Positions 33,519 to 59,370 of a DNA stretch of 64,000 nt are shown piece after piece (the first letter of the stretch is position 1; every line of letters begins with the position of its first letter). A program made the translations under genes and the position numbers. This DNA comes from Octopus vulgaris (taxonomy: Eukaryota). The stretch lies in assembly GCA_951406725.2 (NCBI GenBank), contig OX597817.1:59954001-60018000 (forward strand), read 5' to 3'. The notes under the pieces were generated by a model. It ran no database searches, had not been told where the DNA came from, and saw only the letters and a program-made list of their open reading frames with translations.

Positions 33519-33735
33519 TCATCATCATCATCGTTTAACGTCCGCTTTCCATGCTAGCATGGGTTGGACGATTTTGACTGAGGGCTGGCGAACCAGATGG
33601 CTGCATCAGGCTTCAATCTTGATCTGGCAGGGTTTCTACAGCTGGATGCCCTTCCTAACATTAACCACTCCGAGAGTGTAGTGGGTGCTTTTACGTACCA
33701 CTCACAGAGTGGTTGGCACGTAAAAGCACCTGGCA
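33519..33735 (-). mobile_element. RTE-type SINE-like retroposon
   Basis: Near-identical to 3839-4100. Confidence 0.85.
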
Positions 33736-34120: not shown

Positions 34121-34363
34121 TGGCACGTGTAAAAAGATTCGAGTGTGGCTGTTGCCAGAACCGCCTGACTGGCCTCTGTGCCGGTGGCACGTAAAAAGCA
34201 CCCACTACACTCTTGGAGTGGTTGGCGTTACGAATGGCATCCAGCTGTGGAAACTGCCAGATCAAGATTGGAGCCAGGTGCAGACATCTGGTTCGCCAGC
34301 CCTCAGTCATTCGTCCAACCCATGCTAGCATGAAAAGCGGACGTTAAACGATGGTGATGATGA
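34121..34363 (+). mobile_element. RTE-type SINE-like retroposon
   Basis: Inverted partner of 33519-33735. Confidence 0.85.
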
Positions 34364-34599
34364 GGATAATGATGTCATGCAAGAAACCATGCCAAAGCAG
34401 ACACTGCAGCACAACATGGATCTCTTGGACTCATCAGATCCTGTTTAACTATCTGACCCATACCATTATGGAACCTAGATGTTAAACGATGATGATATCT
34501 CAAAGACCTGCTTGCCATCATTTGCAACAACCCCATCTCCAACACAACCTTTAGTCTTCCTTAATCTTCCTCATCCAAAGCATCATTCAAATGCCACCT

Positions 34600-38019: not shown

Positions 38020-38406
38020 TGCAGGAGTGGCTGTGTGGTAAGTAGCTTGCTAACCAACCACATGGTTCCAGGTTCAGTCCCACTGCTTGGCACCTTGGGC
38101 AAGTGTCTTCTACTATAGCCTCAGGCCGACCAAAGCCTTGGGAGTGGATTTGGTAGATGGAAACTGAAAGAAGCCTGTCGTATATATGTATATATATATG
38201 CGTGTGTTTGTCCCCCTAACATTGCTTGACAACCGATGCTGGTGTGTTTATGTCCCTGTCACTTAGTGGTTCGGCAAAAGAGATCGATAGAATAAGTACT
38301 GGGCTTACAAAGAATAAGTCCCGGGGTCGAGTTGCTCGACTAAAGGCGGTGCTCCAGCATGGCCGCAGTCAAATGACTGAAACAAGTAAAAGAGTAAAAG
38401 AGAGTA
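38020..38406 (+). mobile_element. Full-length tRNA-derived CORE-like SINE (octopus OR-type)
   Basis: A-box tggctgtgtgg, B-box ggttcagtccc, CORE-like ggcaccttgggcaagtgtcttct, internal (TA)/(TG) run, tail gaaacaagtaaaagagtaaaagag. Confidence 0.85.
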
Positions 38407-38735: not shown

Positions 38736-39121
38736 TCTCTTTCTCTTTCTCTCTTTTACTTGTTTCAGTCATTTGACTGCAGCCATGCTGGAGCACCACC
38801 TTTAATCGAGCAACTCGACCCTGGGACTTATTCTTTTGTAAGTCTAGTACATATTCTATCGGTCTCTTTTGTCGAACCGCTAGGTAACGGGGACATAAAC
38901 ACACCAGCATTGGTTGTCAAGCAATGCTAGGGGGACAAACACAGACACACACTCATACATATATACGACGGGCTTCTTTCAGTTTCCGTCTACCAAATCC
39001 ACTCACAAGGCTTTGGTCGGCCCGAGGCTATAGTAGAAGACACTTGCTCAAGGTGCCATGCAGTGAGACTGAATCCGGAACCATGTGGTTGGTAAACAAG
39101 CTACTTACCACACAGCCACGC
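38736..39121 (-). mobile_element. Same SINE, inverted, inserted in a family-B MITE
   Basis: Reverse complement of 38020-38406; cacatc is repeated at both flanks. Confidence 0.85.
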
Positions 39122-39489
39122 CACATCGTTTCAAATTATCATTTATTATCTTGTAGCTTCAAGATTCTGATGATGTGATTGTTTGTTTTAGAATGACATT
39201 GCAGGGCAGGTGTGAGAGGCCAGATCTGGTCAGTTCTAAAATAAAACAAGTCAAATATTTGGGCCTGGTATGGTTTCTAAAGTGGATGTCCTTCCTAATG
39301 CCAATCATTTTACAGAGTGTATTGGGTGCTTTTTACGTGGCACCAGCACCAATGCTTTTTATGTGACACCAGCGCGACAGAGTCATCAAGTACCTTGCAA
39401 AACAAAAACCCCTCAACTGAGATGCAGGGGAGTAGTATTGAGGGGGTGTGGCACTGTGCCAGTTGAGAGATTTGATATGGGTCTTTGCT

Positions 39490-42766: not shown

Positions 42767-43719
42767 CTGCAATAGGAAATAAAGAAAAGGGGAAAAGTTA
42801 GAATAAATGAGAGGCTTTAAGAGTTCTTTTAAGAAAAGTAAATGTCAGAAATTGTGAACACAAGGAACGAAGACCATGTTTATCACTTGAGCAGAAGAAA
42901 GCAAGTGTAGTGGGCATGGGTTTAAGGATTTGTATGCAGTTAATATCCCTTCATAGTCTGTTGGCCTTCATTCTTTGCCATACATTCTTCCAAAATGGTA
43001 AATATCATTAATGTGCTGAGATAAATTCCCAATCAGCAGAAACACAGCCCTCTGGGTGCTTTTCTGCTAGTACATGTCATCTTCCGTTGTATGAAAATGC
43101 TGCGATGGCCATATTTGCCAATATATATGAAATGTGAAATGAATTTTCTAATTTTGATAAGCTAAATAGAAATAGTGTAAAAACTTTCAGAGATGTTCTT
43201 GAAATATATAAGAGTGTGCTGGGAAAAGATGAACAAAATTAAATAAAATAACAGGGGATGGGGATAGAAATGAAGTTTGTGAGAGAGACAAGGGAGAAAG
43301 ACTGAAGAGAAAAAGGACACTGGAAAAAACATGTGAAGAGTGAAAAAGATAGAGAAATAGAAAGACTAATTAGAATAGAGGTGGTATGCAAAGAAGGGAC
43401 AGAGAGAGCGAGAGCGAGAGGAAGACAAAGAGGGGGAGAGAGGGAGGGAGCATTGCAAAGAAATAGTAAAAAAAAAAAGGATACTAATGTAAGATATAAA
43501 AGTAAAAAAATGTTACGCTGAATAGAAATTAGTTTTCTCGTTAGCGTTCAGTCGAAATCTCCAATAATAATTAATTGGAAACAATGTGAATAAATAAGGA
43601 TTACATTTTACAGAGTAATGAGAATGCTAAAGGAGGGGGTTAGGGGTGGACAAAACAATCAACAAAGTTTCACTTTTACACTTATAAAAACAAATTTAAT
43701 CCAAGTTCTTCATACTCAC

Positions 43720-43835
43720 CAATGTTGCCGCCAACTTCATAAAGGTAAAGTTGAGGAGGCTGCTGTTGCTGATGGTGATGATGATGATGATGATGACTGT
43801 GGTGAAGCTGGTTTTGCCATTTTGGGTAAGAATCA
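43720..43835 (-). CDS. RhoGAP penultimate exon with poly-His/Gln tract
   Basis: ttcttctttctag|SDSYPKWQNQLHHSHHHHHHHHQQQQPPQLYLYEVGGNI G|gtgagt. LYEVGGNIG is the ARHGAP18-family C-terminal motif. Confidence 0.9.
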
Positions 43836-44310: not shown

Positions 44311-45189
44311 ATTTCATTTAGCCCTAGGACTTATAAGGCAAGTTACTTAGTTTCTATGGCATTTAAGTGACTGAGAGCATAACATTCCTGCTGAAGAGGT
44401 CACTCGTTCTTTGCAAGGTCCAAGGTCAGCAACTTTTGAGGAGAGGGGATCGATCAATCACAGCATCTCAGTACTTGATTGATATTTCATTTTATTAACC
44501 CCAAAGGGATTAACGGCAAATCTTACCTCAACAGGATTTGAACACAATATAAGGAACCAAAAGAAATGCTAAGCATTTTGCCCAACGTACAAACAGTTCT
44601 TGCAGCTCACAAACTAAAACTCCACTTACAGGAAATATTAAACAATAATTTTAAAAGTTATTAGCAACAATGAGGTACAAATAAATATAAAGACCTGATT
44701 GTTGTTATTTAGATAGATATGTTTAATGAGCCGTAATCCATCAGGCCAGCAACCTTTAATCAAACAGTATATTAATGTTATTGTAGCAATTTGTGAGGCT
44801 GAGAAGGGCTGGAAGTATCAGGTCAATTCTGTTACTTGAACAGCTGAAGGAGACGAATGAGGGGGGGGCATGTGAGCAAAAACAGACCCATGCTTGTTGT
44901 CCTTCAGCTCACATGACCTCTTTTGCTCTTCCCCTTCTAGCAAGGCCCCTTGGCCATTCAAGTGACGTCGCTGACCCTCTACTTCCAGCCCATCTCAGAT
45001 CCACACAGTTGTAGTGATGTATTCAATTGGAACAGTTTGCCATAAATCCTGAAGTTAGCAACTACCCCCGTTAAGGCAAAAAACGAAATTCACTCTGCTC
45101 ACAAACAGCTGACATGAAAAGCAACTCAGCAAAATGACTGCCAGGAGAAATATGAAATCGTGCAGAGGCTTTTATTCCACCACAGCCAA

Positions 45190-45442
45190 CATCATCATCA
45201 TCATCATCGTTTAACATCCATTTTCCATGCTAGCATGGGTTGGACGGTTTGACAGGGGTCTGGGAAGCCAGGAGGCTGCACCAGGCCCCAGTCTGATCTG
45301 GCAGTGTTTCTACAGCTGGATGCCCTTCCTAAAGCCAACCACTTTGTGAGTGTAGTGGGTGTTTTTTATGTGCCAGGGGAGGCTGGCAGCAGCCACGATT
45401 GGTTGGTGCTTTTTACGTGCCACTGGCACAGAAGCCAGTCAA
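45190..45442 (-). mobile_element. RTE-type SINE-like retroposon (gggaagccaggaggctgc subfamily)
   Basis: (CAT)n start on + and family core. Confidence 0.85.
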
Positions 45443-45690
45443 CTGTTATTTACCTGCTCTCCTTCACCTTCTCCTCTTCTGTCCCTATGATTTTGTGTAT
45501 GTGAGTGTGTTTAAGTGTTCTTTTGCCCACTGCCTGCCATCCATGGCCATCCTGCTTTTTTACATGAGCACAATACACCTATTGCTACATTGCCCAATGT
45601 CTAAGGAACTTGTTTTTGGTGATGGAACTGCTAATAACAGCACAAACAATAAATAAATCCAAATAAATCGTTCTGTGCTGGTTGTCTTAC

Positions 45691-45836
45691 CTTTTGTTCT
45701 CATTAAAATGATGTTCCATTTTCTGCACATGGAATAGAATATCTTCCACAACCAAAGCCTCAAAGAGTTGTATTCTTGTTGATTTTGATAAATGAGGCAC
45801 TTGAATGTCAATCATATTATCTAATTGGTCAGGTGA
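45691..45836 (-). CDS. RhoGAP exon (C-terminal ubiquitin-like region)
   Basis: ttttctttttag|SPDQLDNMIDIQVPHLSKSTRIQLFEALVVEDILFHVQKMEHHFNENK AG|gtaaga. Confidence 0.85.
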
Positions 45837-46364
45837 CTAAAAAGAAAAGCAAACAAACAATGAACAACTAATTAGGCCGTACACAAAATTTTAATTGTTA
45901 CACCCCAATGTGCAGGCAACCATGGGGTTTTGAGTTTACTCCCACTGCACAGCATCTTGGGCTGGTGTCTTCTGCTATGGCACCCCCAAGCTGGAACAAT
46001 GCCGTCTGAGTGGATTCGGGAGATGGAAACTGTGTCAAAGCTCATCACATATATATTTATACAACTATGTGTCATGTATGTTAAGTCACATTAGTGTGTG
46101 TATCACATGTATGTACAATGTGCATGTCTTTGCTTGCCTCCCACCCCCACCCCGCCTGACAACTGGTGTTGGTTTGTTTATGTTTCCATAACTTAGTGGT
46201 TGAGCAAAGGAGACTGATAGAATACCAGACTTCAAAAATAACCAATGGGTCGATTTGTGCAGCTAAACACTTGAACACTTCAAGCTGGTGTCCCTGCATT
46301 GCCACAGTTCAATGACTGCAACAAGCAACAGATAGAAGTGGTCATAAATAGCTTTCATTATCCT

Positions 46365-46740
46365 CATTTTTACGTCTGCTTTTCCATGCTGGCATGAGTT
46401 GGATGGCTCCTTTCCAATACTGCAGCTCAACATTTGTGGCATTCCTTTATCTCAAACTTTATCAGGTTCAACATCTTGAGATCAGATTTTATCATTCCTG
46501 CTGTCTTCTTTGGTCTTTCTCTTCCACATTTTCCTTCTTCTTGGATCTCCTGGAACTTCTTTACATGTCTTTTATTAGCCATTTAAGAGGAATCTGGCTG
46601 CTGCTTCATGTAGCTCAAAGATCTATGTAGAGGCTCCTACATGTTGTGTTTGGTGGAAAGATTCTGGTGAAGCATGTCTGCTACTCTTAGTCCAATCCTT
46701 GCTTGTAGTTATTTCCATTACATCACACATTCTTCTTTAG
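46365..46740 (-). mobile_element. Old RTE LINE 3' relic
   Basis: Degenerate GKCGEERPKKT...IKSDLKMLNL, ending in the ccagcatggaaaagcagacgtaaaaatgaggat tail. Confidence 0.5.
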
Positions 46741-46879
46741 ATTTTTAGGGGTCAACAGGGATAATCCTTTATTTATAGATAAGCTGGGTCACAAGAGATC
46801 AAGGGATTGTTTATTGATGTAGGCTTTTGCATAAATGAATATGTGTATGTACACAAACTGAAGCAAACACATCATTTCA

Positions 46880-47160
46880 CATAAACACACTATGCCACAA
46901 TCACATACACACATACATACACACACCACATACAATACACACGTATGCACTCATCGCACAAGACATATACAACACACACTCAACACACTACATATACATG
47001 ATACAACACATATGCACACTCATTTCACACACATACATGTACCACTTCACACGCGCGCGCGCACGCACGCACACACACACACACACACCATATTGGCACA
47101 AACCACAATGCACACACCGCAGCACATACAATACACCCCTCCCCAAACATACACTGCACC
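46880..47160. repeat. Degenerate (CA)n tract with an internal (CG)5 run
   Basis: Directly visible. Confidence 0.9.
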
Positions 47161-47217
47161 AAACCACATTTACAAACAAATATATGTAAATATAAGCTTC
47201 TGTTTTTTAATACTTAC

Positions 47218-47271
47218 CTCAGACAAATGAGTTTTTTTCACTGGTTCTTTCTTGCCAGGTATTTTTAATCT
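47218..47271 (-). CDS. RhoGAP exon
   Basis: atattgcag|RLKIPGKKEPVKKTHLSE|gtaagt, 54 nt, phase 0-0. Confidence 0.75.
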
Positions 47272-47675
47272 CTGCAATATATAAAATAGCCATCTCTATA
47301 TCATAACTAATGTATATACAATAAATTGATAGGCCAGTTACAGCCGTATTTGTCCTGAGACAACATCTCTGTTAAAAATACACATACAGCGAGAGATGGA
47401 AATTCATTTCAGCAATGGCCAGCCAAAAGTGACCAGATGCATTTCAGGCTTTTACTCTTCATTTCAATGGTGTATATTCACAACCAGCCACATGCTTGAA
47501 AGAGCAGATATCATTGTCTCCGATATACAAAAGGTGAATAAAACATTGATAATAATAACGATGACAATGACCTACAGCAAAAACGAAAAGTAACACTGAA
47601 CTGGGCCACATATAGTGTAGAACCCTCCCGTCCCCCAGAAAACAAGAAAAGAAAAAAAGCATGGCTGATAAATAC

Positions 47676-47741
47676 CCTAGATTTTCTGGTTATTTCCAAT
47701 TCATAACGGCGTCTCAATTGCTGGATCATTGATGGAGGGAT
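47676..47741 (-). CDS. RhoGAP exon
   Basis: ttcctcttag|IPPSMIQQLRRRYELEITRKSR|gtattt, phase 0-0. Confidence 0.85.
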
Positions 47742-48082
47742 CTAAGAGGAACAAAGAGAAATATTTACTTTAGTATTCAGAAATAAAGATCAGGGATTTA
47801 TTTCCAACTACAATAAATGGTTTCAAATTTTGGCACAAAACCAGCAGTTTTTTTATGGGGAGGAGGAGGAAGTCAACTATATCAACCCCAGTACACAACT
47901 GGTACTTATTTTATCGACCCTGAAAAGGATGACAGGCAAAGCATTTTGTCAACATGTTAACAATTCTGCTACTATAAATCAGCATGAACTTTCTGGACAA
48001 GATACTATAAATTGGCATGAACTTTCTGGACAACCCAATATAATAGCCACAATTAGAATTGGGTAAAAAGTGAAGAACTTAC

Positions 48083-48289
48083 TGTCCATAAAATATCAAT
48101 ATAATTGACCATCAATTTGATAATGTAGGCAGGCACAGCTATTGAAATTTCCCAGTCTTTGAAATTCTTTAATTTTTTTGATGATGAAGAGAGGAAGAGA
48201 TTTGGTGCCATAATCATTGCAACATTTGACAAAGTCATTTTGTTTTCATTTTGGTAATATATGACGTTCTTCAGGAATCTTAATAAAAT
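48083..48289 (-). CDS. RhoGAP exon (end of GAP domain)
   Basis: ILLRFLKNVIYYQNENKMTLSNVAMIMAPNLF...MVNYIDILWT|gtaagt, containing the NKMxxxNVAMIMAPNLF motif. Confidence 0.95.
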
Positions 48290-48440
48290 CTACAATGGAA
48301 GAAAATTATTTCATTAATCACATTATTTTAACATTCATCAATTTAGGGATAAAAACTAAAAAAAAATGGCTACTTGCTTTGACCACCGGTGTGCAGGATC
48401 AAAGCAGAAGACTTCTTGTAGCATCCTTTATCTGTCCCCA

Positions 48441-48773
48441 TGATACCTGTACCGGTGGCACGTAAAAAGCACCATCCGAACATGGCCGATGCCAGCACCA
48501 CCTTGATTGGCTTCTGTGCCGGTGGCACGTAAAAAGCACCAACCGATCATGGCCACTGTCAGCCTCCCCTGGCACCTGTGCTGGTGGCACATAAAGAGCA
48601 CCCACTACACTCACGGAGTGGTTGGCTTTAGGTAGGGCATCCAGCTGTAGAAACACTGCCAGATCAGACTGTTGCCTGGTGCAGCCTCCTGGCTTCCCAG
48701 GCCCCGGTGGAACCATCCAACCCGTGCTAGCACGGAAAGCGGACGTTAAACGATGATGATGATGATGATGATG
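48441..48773 (+). mobile_element. RTE-type SINE-like retroposon (same subfamily as 45190)
   Basis: Family core and (GAT)7 tail; shares variants with 45190-45442. Confidence 0.85.
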
Positions 48774-50592
48774 TTGCCTGCTTTCCTATCACAACTGGAT
48801 TTTTGAATAAAATGTGATGCTGTTTGATGCTAATGTTTGCTGAACAACCTGTACAATGAAAATTATTATTATATTGGTCATGGTTTGTGCAGAGCCAGTC
48901 TCAATCTCTGTCCTTCAAACTTGCATTGGTCCGGGGCAACAAGTGCCATGAGCCCAGAAGTTAAGAGGATGCAAGATTTCTATGGATTTACCTTCTCTTA
49001 GACGAGCAGTTAAAGAGCTGAAGAGCTTCATCTAATCTGTGTTTGTTGCGGATGTCTGTGAGTGACCTTCTTCAGGAGGCTTATGAGTAAGATAAATGAT
49101 ATTGTGGAAAGAAATCTTAAATATTGAACAGTCATTGAAATATTTATTCATTTATATTTCTTTATCTTAGAAGAGGCAGTGCACCTGACCCTTTAGAGGA
49201 CCTCTGAAAGTGGTGGGAAGGAAATAAAGGGGGAGAGATCTTGACATTGAAGATCAGGCCTGAATACTTGCAGCAGAGTGGCCCCTGCTAAAGGCCCCCA
49301 AGGTGCTACGAGGTGGTGACATAAGTCTATCACTCATACAGGCAATGGTGAGATTTGAACTCAGAATGCAAAGCACTAGACAGAATATGGCATCACGTGT
49401 GATGCTCAAATGGTTCTGATAGATCATCAGTCTAGACTGCTTATCAATCCTGGAAGGAGGAAAGACAAAGTCGACCTTGATATGGTTTGAACCCAGAATA
49501 TAAAGTGTCAGAATAAATACTACAAGGCATTTTGTCCGAGGGTCTGACCCGGCCAGTTCGCTACCTTTGCTGATGTATAAGATGCACCATTATTTTACAG
49601 CTGTATCTTAGGGAAAAATAAAAAGCAAATTTAATGTTTCATCATATATTTGTTGAAAGAGATTTTAAAATGGTTTTATAGAAGAAAATGGATGATTCTG
49701 TGTATGGAAATACAATACTCTGACAGTGTTTTGGAATAAAGTGTGAAACCATAATTTTACCACAACTAAACGTTATACGAATATTGAATCTAATATTCTT
49801 CCAGATCAACTGTGTAGTTGTTTATATTTTGGTCCAGAGAATCATCATAGAGAATGTAAAACTCATATTTCTGGCTATGAGGTTATGTGTTACTGCAATT
49901 GAACCCCAGGGTGGCAGACCACTGCTGTGGTTTTGTTGTCATCCACTCATTGCAAATAGCGGACAGGCAAATGAGACTTTAACATTTTTCTAGGACAATT
50001 TTTTATTTAAATAATTAAAAATTTGTTTCTTAAAGGTAATACTGTCATTAAATAACATAAGATACATATCAGGTGTAGATTATGTCTGCTGGGAAACAAG
50101 GTATAAACGAGATGATGTGATCTCTTCACAATGTAATGGAAGTATTTTTTTATAAGTTTGTCCAAACAACAATATTTTGGTTGGTTTTCTCTATTTTATT
50201 ATTAGTAACAATTATTGTACCTATGACACTGGGTCTCTCATTTGTAATACAGTCACATTAGATGCAGGTCAATTTTCTTTTTATATACATTTGAAAATAG
50301 AAAAAGCATGTCTTACATGCTTGCAAATGTGGCATTTATTTATTGATTCCTGTCCATCAATAAATGTTGATTTCTACTTATTAACCTTATCTTAATTTTT
50401 TTTTAAACAGAGACAGATCCCTCTGAATCACACTGTATATATCTCTCTGTTAGGAATATATTAATGCTGTAAAAAGCAGTAGTGGGATCACTGTAAAACT
50501 AACAAGTGTACAATATAGTTCAACTTCATCTTAAGAACAAAGAAAATGTAAGAAGAAAAAAAAGAAACCCAGAATCCCTATAGAATACTGAC

Positions 50593-50675
50593 CATAAGTG
50601 AGTTTCTGTGAGCATCAGGTAAGACCATGAGCAGGAGATTCAGAGCTTTCAGTTGATCCCGGAGGTTGGGGATGA
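50593..50675 (-). CDS. RhoGAP exon
   Basis: tttttccag|FIPNLRDQLKALNLLLMVLPDAHRNSLM|gtcagt, phase 1 to 0. Confidence 0.92.
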
Positions 50676-58880: not shown

Positions 58881-59077
58881 TTAGAATTATTTCACATTCT
58901 GTCAAAAGTTTATAAATTCCTACGACTTCAACTATCTATCTTTATACAGGGTGTGGTGGATAAATTGCCAAAGTTTAATACAACGATTTTGCTATGGAAT
59001 GGTGAAACTATTATTTCAATTTCTGAAAAAGCAAAGTTTTGGACTTACAACACTTTTGCATAACGAATGAACAACCG

Positions 59078-59370
59078 CATCATCATCATCATCATCATCA
59101 TCGTTTAACGTCCGCTTTCCATGCTAGCATGGGTTGGAGGGTTCAACTGGGGTCTGGGATGCCCGAAGGCTGCACCAGGCCAGTCAGATCTGGCGGTGTT
59201 TCTACAGCTGGATGCCCTTCCTAACGCCAACCACTCCGTGAGTGTAGTGGGTGCTTTTTACGTGCCACCGGCACGGAGGCCAGGTGAGGCTGGCACAGCC
59301 ACGATCGGATGGTGTTTGTTACGTGCCACCAGCACGGAGGCCAGTCGATGCGGTGTTGGCTACGGCCACA
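59078..59370 (-). mobile_element. RTE-type SINE-like retroposon
   Basis: (CAT)8 start on + and family core. An inverted copy lies at 62728-63020. Confidence 0.85.

What the first reader, a model, noticed from the sequence alone, without database searches (positions are those of the whole stretch)
45190..48773. Inverted same-subfamily retroposons tightly bracket four RhoGAP exons: circRNA / ADAR-substrate architecture
Seen: copies at 48441-48773 and 45190-45442 are inverted. They sit about 150 nt upstream of the acceptor at 48289 and about 250 nt downstream of the donor at 45691, enclosing four exons (207+66+54+146 = 473 nt). Both carry cctaaagccaacc where most other copies here have cctaacgcc/cctaatgcc, and both have gggaagccaggaggctgc. 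Established: reverse-complementary intronic repeats promote back-splicing and are ADAR targets, and coleoids edit RNA heavily. Inference: a roughly 250-bp pre-mRNA duplex could give a 473-nt circRNA, or frameshifting skipping of the GAP C-terminus, tunable by editing.
Basis: partly seen in the sequence, partly recalled or inferred. Interest (0 to 1): 0.7.

Follow-up and report, generated by a model that had tools for sequence, protein, structure and literature searches.

The report
Chance inverted transposon scraps around exons
Two leftover tails of a very common jumping gene sit back-to-back around four exons of an octopus cell-shape regulator gene; they are predicted to pair in the unspliced RNA, but they are ordinary, unrelated copies that likely landed there by chance, and normal splicing is what the RNA data show.

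Summary
Observation confirmed; the reading as a tuned circRNA or skipping switch is not supported. Inverted repeats at 48441-48773 and 45187-45442 flank four exons (473 nt) of an ARHGAP18-like gene. They are 5'-truncated 3' ends of an endonuclease + reverse-transcriptase LINE, probably RTE clade. One "diagnostic" motif occurs 7,880 times in the genome. The arms are 151/168 identical, a value reached by 144 of 435 sampled subfamily pairs, and they are not sisters in a tree. The shared cctaaag allele is rare (104 vs 19,118), but 43 of 666 sampled pairs share some rare allele. An equally tight, strong bracket arises in about 2.7% of shuffled gene placements. A ~230-bp duplex is predicted, so some ADAR editing is plausible. 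A third copy 10 kb upstream pairs better with the upstream arm. RNA contigs show the linear joints; back-splicing and editing could not be tested sensitively. Skipping would put a stop codon at the new junction. Published work finds octopus circRNAs low. The scan judged a similar case elsewhere in this genome ordinary (e1-9856754).

The parts
48441..48773 (+). Upstream arm (in transcript order): 5'-truncated 3' end of a LINE, about 2.5 copies of a ~62-67-nt subrepeat, core, (ATG)n tail
   Evidence: 82-86% identical to the sequence downstream of 976-1057-aa open frames in L202, L205, L207, L208 (EN+RT confirmed by Pfam for L202 and L205); 39 other genomic copies at 91-93%
45187..45442 (-). Downstream arm: shorter 5'-truncated 3' end of the same LINE subfamily, opposite orientation
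   Evidence: 86-91% over its core to the same LINE 3' ends; 39 other copies at 91-94%
48083..48289 (-). Exon, 207 nt; end of the RhoGAP domain
   Evidence: joined to upstream exon and to 47741 in RNA contigs
47676..47741 (-). Exon, 66 nt
   Evidence: joints 47741/48083 and 47271/47676 in run X1
47218..47271 (-). Exon, 54 nt
   Evidence: joint 45836/47218 in run X1
45691..45836 (-). Exon, 146 nt; start of the C-terminal ubiquitin-like domain (PF25442)
   Evidence: followed linearly by exon 43835-43715 in an X6 contig
50593..50675 (-). Exon upstream of the block; its donor would be used in skipping
   Evidence: loose end at 48290 in X1 matches it
43715..43835 (-). Exon downstream of the block; begins TGA when read after a four-exon skip
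59077..59370 (-). Third copy of the family in the same gene, inverted relative to the upstream arm: a competing partner
   Evidence: 86.1% over 295 columns, 342 bits against 318 for the reported pair; duplex -499.7 against -463.7 kcal/mol

Best explanation
The two arms are 5'-truncated 3' ends of an abundant LINE subfamily that likely inserted independently and by chance in opposite orientation in two introns of an ARHGAP18-like gene; in the nascent RNA they are predicted to form a ~230-bp duplex that would likely be edited promiscuously by ADAR and then discarded with the introns, while the four exons are spliced linearly. Any circle or skipped transcript would likely be a low-level, unselected by-product; the skipped form would meet a stop codon at the junction and likely be degraded. 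Shown: the repeat identity, ordinary divergence, linear joints, stop codon. Predicted: the duplex. Inferred: independent insertion, editing, lack of selection.
For: Arms match LINE 3' ends directly behind long open frames. Subfamily has at least 7,880 exact 26-nt matches, control 0; 79 family copies in 264 kb here. Pair identity 151/168; 144 of 435 sampled pairs are as close. Partner absent from the 40 scored hits of either arm, which reach 91-94%. Not sisters among 127 cores; ranks 107 and 97 of 126 (58 of the cores were picked for likeness to one arm). 10 and 12 departures from the majority base, only 2 shared. Of 17 non-Watson-Crick columns, 13 are true mismatches. 16 inverted pairs of >=300 bits within 4 kb in 664 kb, this one included; null 2.65% of gene placements. 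Linear order in contigs of X1, X3 and X6, and an X2 contig running unbroken through the 48289 acceptor; three exact linear joints in X1. Octopus circRNAs low, 296 high-confidence (PMC9699675, passages and supplement PDF passages). Ubiquitous editing in squid falls in introns and 3' UTRs over repeats (PMC9068888, passages). Inverted neighbouring repeats are the general hyper-editing substrate (PMC5625713, passages).
Against: Both arms carry a C>A allele seen in only 104 of 19,222 exact-context copies (0.54%). My null for sharing a rare allele (43 of 666 pairs) used a looser cut (<=2.5%), so the chance of sharing one this rare is lower than 6.5% and was not measured. The bracket is tight and is the closest strong inverted pair round exons in this gene. 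Reverse-complementary matches can drive both circles and skipping (PMC8330042, abstract). The subfamily sample was the first 30 matches on one contig, and null placements are not independent.
Confidence: 0.8

Rival explanations
1. One reading: the arms form a selected switch in which the duplex promotes a 473-nt circRNA or four-exon skipping (a decay-coupled dial on GAP level) and ADAR editing tunes it.
For: Predicted 230-bp duplex with helices up to 38 bp; tight placement; 8 A-C mismatches in the core, a context ADAR favours (recalled); skipping gives TGA at the junction 118 nt before the last junction, which fits the recalled 50-55-nt decay rule; mechanism known in other animals (PMC8330042 abstract).
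Against: Ordinary identity and no kinship of the arms. Arms are young (Jukes-Cantor 0.062 and 0.075 from the majority base, near the 0.065 / 18-Myr LINE-SINE burst in PMC13282606, part 1 read) while the exons are shared with Argonauta. Stronger competing partner. Linear joints shown. Octopus circRNAs low. The circle has no open rolling frame: stop four codons after the junction.
Confidence: 0.05
2. The arms exchanged a short tract by local gene conversion (or one templated repair of the other), which explains the shared rare allele; the pair is otherwise neutral.
For: Shared allele at 0.54%; the arms are 3 kb apart and inverted; cctaaagccaacc is in no other copy in 264 kb.
Against: Only one informative shared change; private differences lie 6 nt to one side and 11 nt to the other, so a tract would be about 16 nt or later overwritten. 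The site is a CpG. The allele recurs on many haplotypes among the 30 projected copies. 43 of 666 pairs share some rare allele.
Confidence: 0.1
3. The reported duplex seldom forms: the upstream arm is taken by the earlier-transcribed 59077-59370 copy, or the upstream intron is removed before the downstream arm is made.
For: 59077 copy pairs better (262 bp, -499.7 against 237 bp, -463.7); several inverted pairs enclose exons in this gene (8 hits >=100 bits).
Against: That partner is 10.3 kb away across four exons, against 3.1 kb; duplex energies carry no loop or kinetic term; the local fold pairs the reported arms.
Confidence: 0.15

Closest known systems
Reverse-complementary-match (RCM) driven exonic circRNA loci, e.g. 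inverted Alu pairs; C. elegans zip-2 (PMC8330042, abstract read)
   Same: Complementary sequences in both flanking introns, close to canonical splice sites, enclosing several exons
   Different: No circle shown here. The zip-2 match is conserved across nematodes; these arms are young, ordinary transposon copies with a better-pairing competitor in the same gene
Species-specific transposon-associated circRNAs as splicing by-products (PMC8516420, abstract read)
   Same: Young, lineage-specific repeats in flanking introns of conserved constitutive exons; best model for what this locus might do
   Different: Those are detected, RNase R-enriched mammalian circles; here only the DNA arrangement is shown
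Hyper-edited inverted repeat pairs in pre-mRNA (PMC5625713, passages; PMC9068888, passages)
   Same: Long, near-perfect predicted duplex from neighbouring inverted repeats; truncated LINE 3' ends behaving like SINEs, as described there for chicken CR1
   Different: Editing of these two copies not measured; arms are 3 kb apart with exons in the loop
RTE-clade LINEs of octopus (RTE-2_OV, PMC9115989, passages)
   Same: Parent elements have one ~1,050-aa endonuclease + reverse transcriptase frame, a zinc-finger-like hit and a microsatellite tail
   Different: Clade not tested by a tree; identity with RTE-2_OV itself not tested; the arms are only non-coding 3' remnants

Membership tests
RCM-driven exonic circRNA locus | Reverse-complementary sequence in both flanking introns | tested here: met
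RCM-driven exonic circRNA locus | Canonical acceptor and donor at the ends of the block | tested here: met
   both ends used in RNA contigs
RCM-driven exonic circRNA locus | Back-splice junction 45691->48289 in RNA | tested here: inconclusive
   Only assembled contigs were available, which drop rare forms; joint table cut, and mRNA contigs shown for only 1 of 4 runs
RCM-driven exonic circRNA locus | RNase R resistance; loss of circle on deleting one arm | not testable with these tools
   needs experiment
Selected (conserved) pairing element | Arms closer to each other than to other subfamily copies, or compensatory changes | tested here: not met
Selected (conserved) pairing element | Both arms kept at orthologous places in other cephalopods | not tested
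ADAR hyper-editing substrate | Long, near-perfect double strand in one pre-mRNA | tested here: met
   Predicted only: 230 pairs, helices to 38 bp
ADAR hyper-editing substrate | Clusters of A-to-G changes in these two copies | tested here: inconclusive
   Contigs of thousands of other copies piled on the arms; changes seen are subfamily alleles in both directions
5'-truncated LINE fragment | Matches the 3' end of an autonomous endonuclease + reverse transcriptase element | tested here: met
   4 of 8 fetched long-frame loci carry the arm sequence behind the frame at 82-86%; Pfam RVT_1 and Exo_endo_phos for the 2 scanned
5'-truncated LINE fragment | Simple-repeat 3' tail and variable 5' truncation | tested here: met
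   (ATG)n tail; many of the 29 closest copies extend further 5' than the upstream arm
5'-truncated LINE fragment | Target-site duplication | tested here: inconclusive
   Only 5-nt chance-level matches
RTE clade | Groups with RTE reverse transcriptases in a tree | not tested
   Homologue search gave no clade names; assignment rests on architecture and recall
SINE with small-RNA head | tRNA, 5S or 7SL-derived head | tested here: not met
   No such Rfam match in 44500-49500; 5' extensions resemble LINE 3' UTR. A longer SINE sharing this tail is not excluded

The most novel reading that the evidence does not exclude
A young LINE pair has been co-opted as an ADAR-tuned switch in an octopus RhoGAP gene: unedited duplex favours a 473-nt circle and a stop-at-junction skipped mRNA, and editing of A-U pairs versus the eight A-C mismatches sets how much full-length GAP is made, which would tie coleoid editing level (tissue, temperature) to Rho signalling.
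Probability: 0.04. Interest if true: 0.65.

Novelty: new member of a known kind. Interest (0 to 1): 0.12.

Why it matters
As it stands it matters little: it is one of probably hundreds of inverted transposon pairs round exons in this genome (inference). It is a usable test locus for the published idea that heavy ADAR activity keeps octopus circRNAs low (PMC9699675), because the duplex is long and the junction is well defined. If the switch were real it would be a direct link between coleoid RNA editing and regulated splicing output.

Tried and rejected
1) RNA search: no RNA holder listed on record; all candidate runs are guessed RNA and kept as contigs. 8 run-layings over 6 distinct runs of 24 listed (X1, X2, X3, X6; X1, X2, X4, X7). 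No back-splice or skip joint was shown, but this is not evidence of absence: 15 joints were shown and 198 hidden, all shown ones repeat noise; at 98% likeness the mRNA contigs of X2, X4 and X7 were not shown, and the stretch left out the downstream exon, so skipping could not appear. 2) Editing in the arms: unreadable through pile-up of other copies. Between the arms, 47493 (A>G on the transcript) and 47615 differ at full depth in 4 of 4 runs; read as alleles, no DNA control laid. 3) The list of 296 octopus circRNAs was not found: supplement files 1 and 3 of PMC9699675 gave no hits, and file 1 could not be unpacked, so it may bear on the claim unseen. 4) My recollection that 'CoeSINE' is an octopus family was wrong: it is coelacanth (PMC5786205, passages); its supplement had no match to the motifs or to Octopus. 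A bipartite RTE 5'+3' SINE reading was dropped when the whole arm matched LINE 3' ends. 5) An AAG sub-lineage uniting the arms: not seen; 30 projected copies share no consistent second marker with both arms. 6) Rfam: two microsatellite-driven miRNA hits far below gathering score. 7) Literature searches for an octopus or ARHGAP18 circle of this kind (listings only) showed none; the library is incomplete. 8) Earlier-findings search by words gave nothing.

Full report
Observation. The minus strand holds four exons, 48289-48083, 47741-47676, 47271-47218 and 45836-45691 (473 nt), with AG/GT ends and one open frame. The first carries the end of a RhoGAP domain. The best protein hit is named rho GTPase-activating protein 18 of Octopus sinensis (100% over this exon), and it maps as 16 segments from 73473 to 42684. 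It has RhoGAP at 340-486 and a ubiquitin-like domain at 569-675. The four exons cover residues 453-609. The inverted arms are real: 189 nt at 90% ungapped, 85.2% over 271 columns gapped, 151 and 248 nt from the splice sites.

What the arms are. I fetched 8 loci with long open frames related to an endonuclease fragment in the window. In 4 of them (L202, L205, L207, L208) the arm sequence lies behind the frame on the same strand at 82-86% identity and ends in the same (ATG)n tail. The two frames scanned have RVT_1 and Exo_endo_phos domains. Many of the 29 closest genomic copies extend further 5' than the upstream arm, and no small-RNA head was found. So the arms are 5'-truncated LINE 3' ends. 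RTE clade is likely from the single ~1,050-aa frame and microsatellite tail (PMC9115989, passages) but was not tested; the homologue search gave no clade names. No target-site duplication was found. The family has 79 copies in the 264 kb round the window, and 0, 0, 11 and 1 in four other 100-kb blocks.

Are the two copies special? The motif gggaagccaggaggctgc, in a 26-nt form, occurs 7,880 times exactly, control 0. Over the 168-nt core the arms agree at 151 positions. Among the first 30 listed motif carriers (one contig), 144 of 435 pairs are as close; 11 of 30 are closer to the downstream arm, and 5 of 30 closer to the upstream arm, than the arms are to each other. Each arm has 39 other scored hits at 91-94%, and the partner is not among them. 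In a tree of 127 cores the arms are not sisters, ranking 107 and 97 of 126 (58 cores had been picked for likeness to an arm). They depart from the majority base at 10 and 12 sites and share 2 departures. One is a common CpG change (37.5% of 95 copies). The other is the cctaaag allele, which is rare: 104 copies against 19,118 with another base in the same 35-nt context. Among 37 copies, 43 of 666 pairs share an allele of <=2.5% frequency; that cut is looser than 0.54%, so the coincidence is mild to moderate, and a very short conversion tract cannot be excluded.

Is the placement special? In 664 kb there are 16 inverted pairs of >=300 bits within 4 kb, this one included. Sliding the gene's exon map over these blocks, with the real pair removed, some exon block was bracketed within 300 nt in 2.65% of 510,055 placements at >=300 bits and 7.1% at >=200 bits; per block 0-6.9%. 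This exact block was bracketed in 0 placements at the strict setting. Placements are not independent. The inference is that the arrangement is uncommon per gene but expected in hundreds of genes.

Structure. The arms give a predicted 237-bp duplex (-463.7 kcal/mol), and 230 arm-to-arm pairs appear in the fold of the 3.8-kb pre-mRNA. The core has 151 Watson-Crick pairs, 4 G-U pairs and 13 mismatches, 8 of them A-C: no sign of compensation. A third copy at 59077-59370 pairs better with the upstream arm (262 bp, -499.7) from 10.3 kb away.

Products. The circle would not hold a rolling frame; translation stops four codons after the junction. Skipping joins a phase-0 donor at 50593 to 43835, which begins TGA, 118 nt before the last junction. 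By the recalled decay rule that mRNA would be degraded; any protein would end at about residue 452, inside the GAP domain.

RNA. Only contigs of guessed-RNA runs were available. An X3 contig of 2,573 nt and an X6 contig of 2,944 nt hold the exons in linear order with 120 nt between first and fourth, and X1 and X2 contigs run through the acceptor into upstream sequence. X1 shows three exact linear joints and the upstream exon at 48290. These show normal splicing. They cannot show absence of a rare circle, and editing in the arms was unreadable (see Tried and rejected).

Literature. PMC9699675 (passages and supplement PDF passages): octopus circRNAs are low, 296 high-confidence, most editing in introns and 3' UTRs; the list was not seen. 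PMC5625713 (passages): hyper-editing arises mainly from neighbouring inverted repeats and is very high in octopus. PMC9068888 (passages): ubiquitous edits overlap repeats in introns and UTRs. PMC8330042 (abstract): complementary matches drive both circles and skipping. PMC8516420 (abstract): many circles are by-products of young transposons. PMC13282606 (part 1 of 3): a LINE-SINE burst at Jukes-Cantor 0.065, about 18 Myr; the arms lie at 0.062 and 0.075 from their majority base, so they are likely young, whereas the exons are shared with Argonauta.

Verdict. It works like, at most, a standard repeat-driven duplex: a likely ADAR substrate with possible trace circularisation. It is not shown to be a circRNA locus, and it fails the test for a specially related pair. 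Best explanation 0.8; regulated switch about 0.04-0.05; interest 0.12.

Noticed in passing
window 38024-38403 and 38742-39122: Inverted pair of another repeat family, 90% over 381 columns, 338 nt apart; the strongest predicted duplex examined (-655.9 kcal/mol, 359 bp). It lies about 3.6 kb past the gene's stop codon, so it would be a better ADAR substrate if the 3' UTR reaches it (not tested).
   Followed up: partly
window 33519-33709 and 34121-34374: Another inverted pair of the same LINE-tail family, 88% over 194 columns, about 400 nt apart.
   Followed up: partly
window 57919-57770, minus strand: Segment present in the O. bimaculoides isoform P0002 and absent from P0001: a probable alternative exon before the GAP domain.
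   Followed up: no
window 43835-43715, minus strand: A His/Gln tract encoded by a (CAT)n run interrupts the ubiquitin-like domain; His/Gln-rich tracts also stand there in P0002 and P0003.
   Followed up: no
window 40252-39560, minus strand: Broken endonuclease-like frames of a LINE fragment; relatives with frames up to 1,061 aa exist elsewhere in G000.
   Followed up: partly
L072-L073 (about 14.9-22.1 kb before the window start): Tandem duplication of 3.6 kb at 99.8% identity; recent duplication or assembly artefact.
   Followed up: no
window 10765-10556, minus strand: Open stretch with a Cys2-His2 zinc-finger-like pattern, probably an exon of another gene (pattern recognised from recall).
   Followed up: no
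L202 2063-5197 (+) and L205 1175-4345 (-): The parent LINE frames carry a weak PHD-finger hit just after the reverse transcriptase, below Pfam's cut-off; many unnamed homologues list it too.
   Followed up: no
G000 blocks on C4, C1, C10, C7, C18: Family density is very uneven: 79 copies in 264 kb here against 0, 0, 11 and 1 per 100 kb elsewhere.
   Followed up: partly
window 47493 and 47615: Two intronic differences from the assembly at full depth in 4 of 4 runs; 47493 reads A>G on the transcript. Probably alleles; no DNA control.
   Followed up: no
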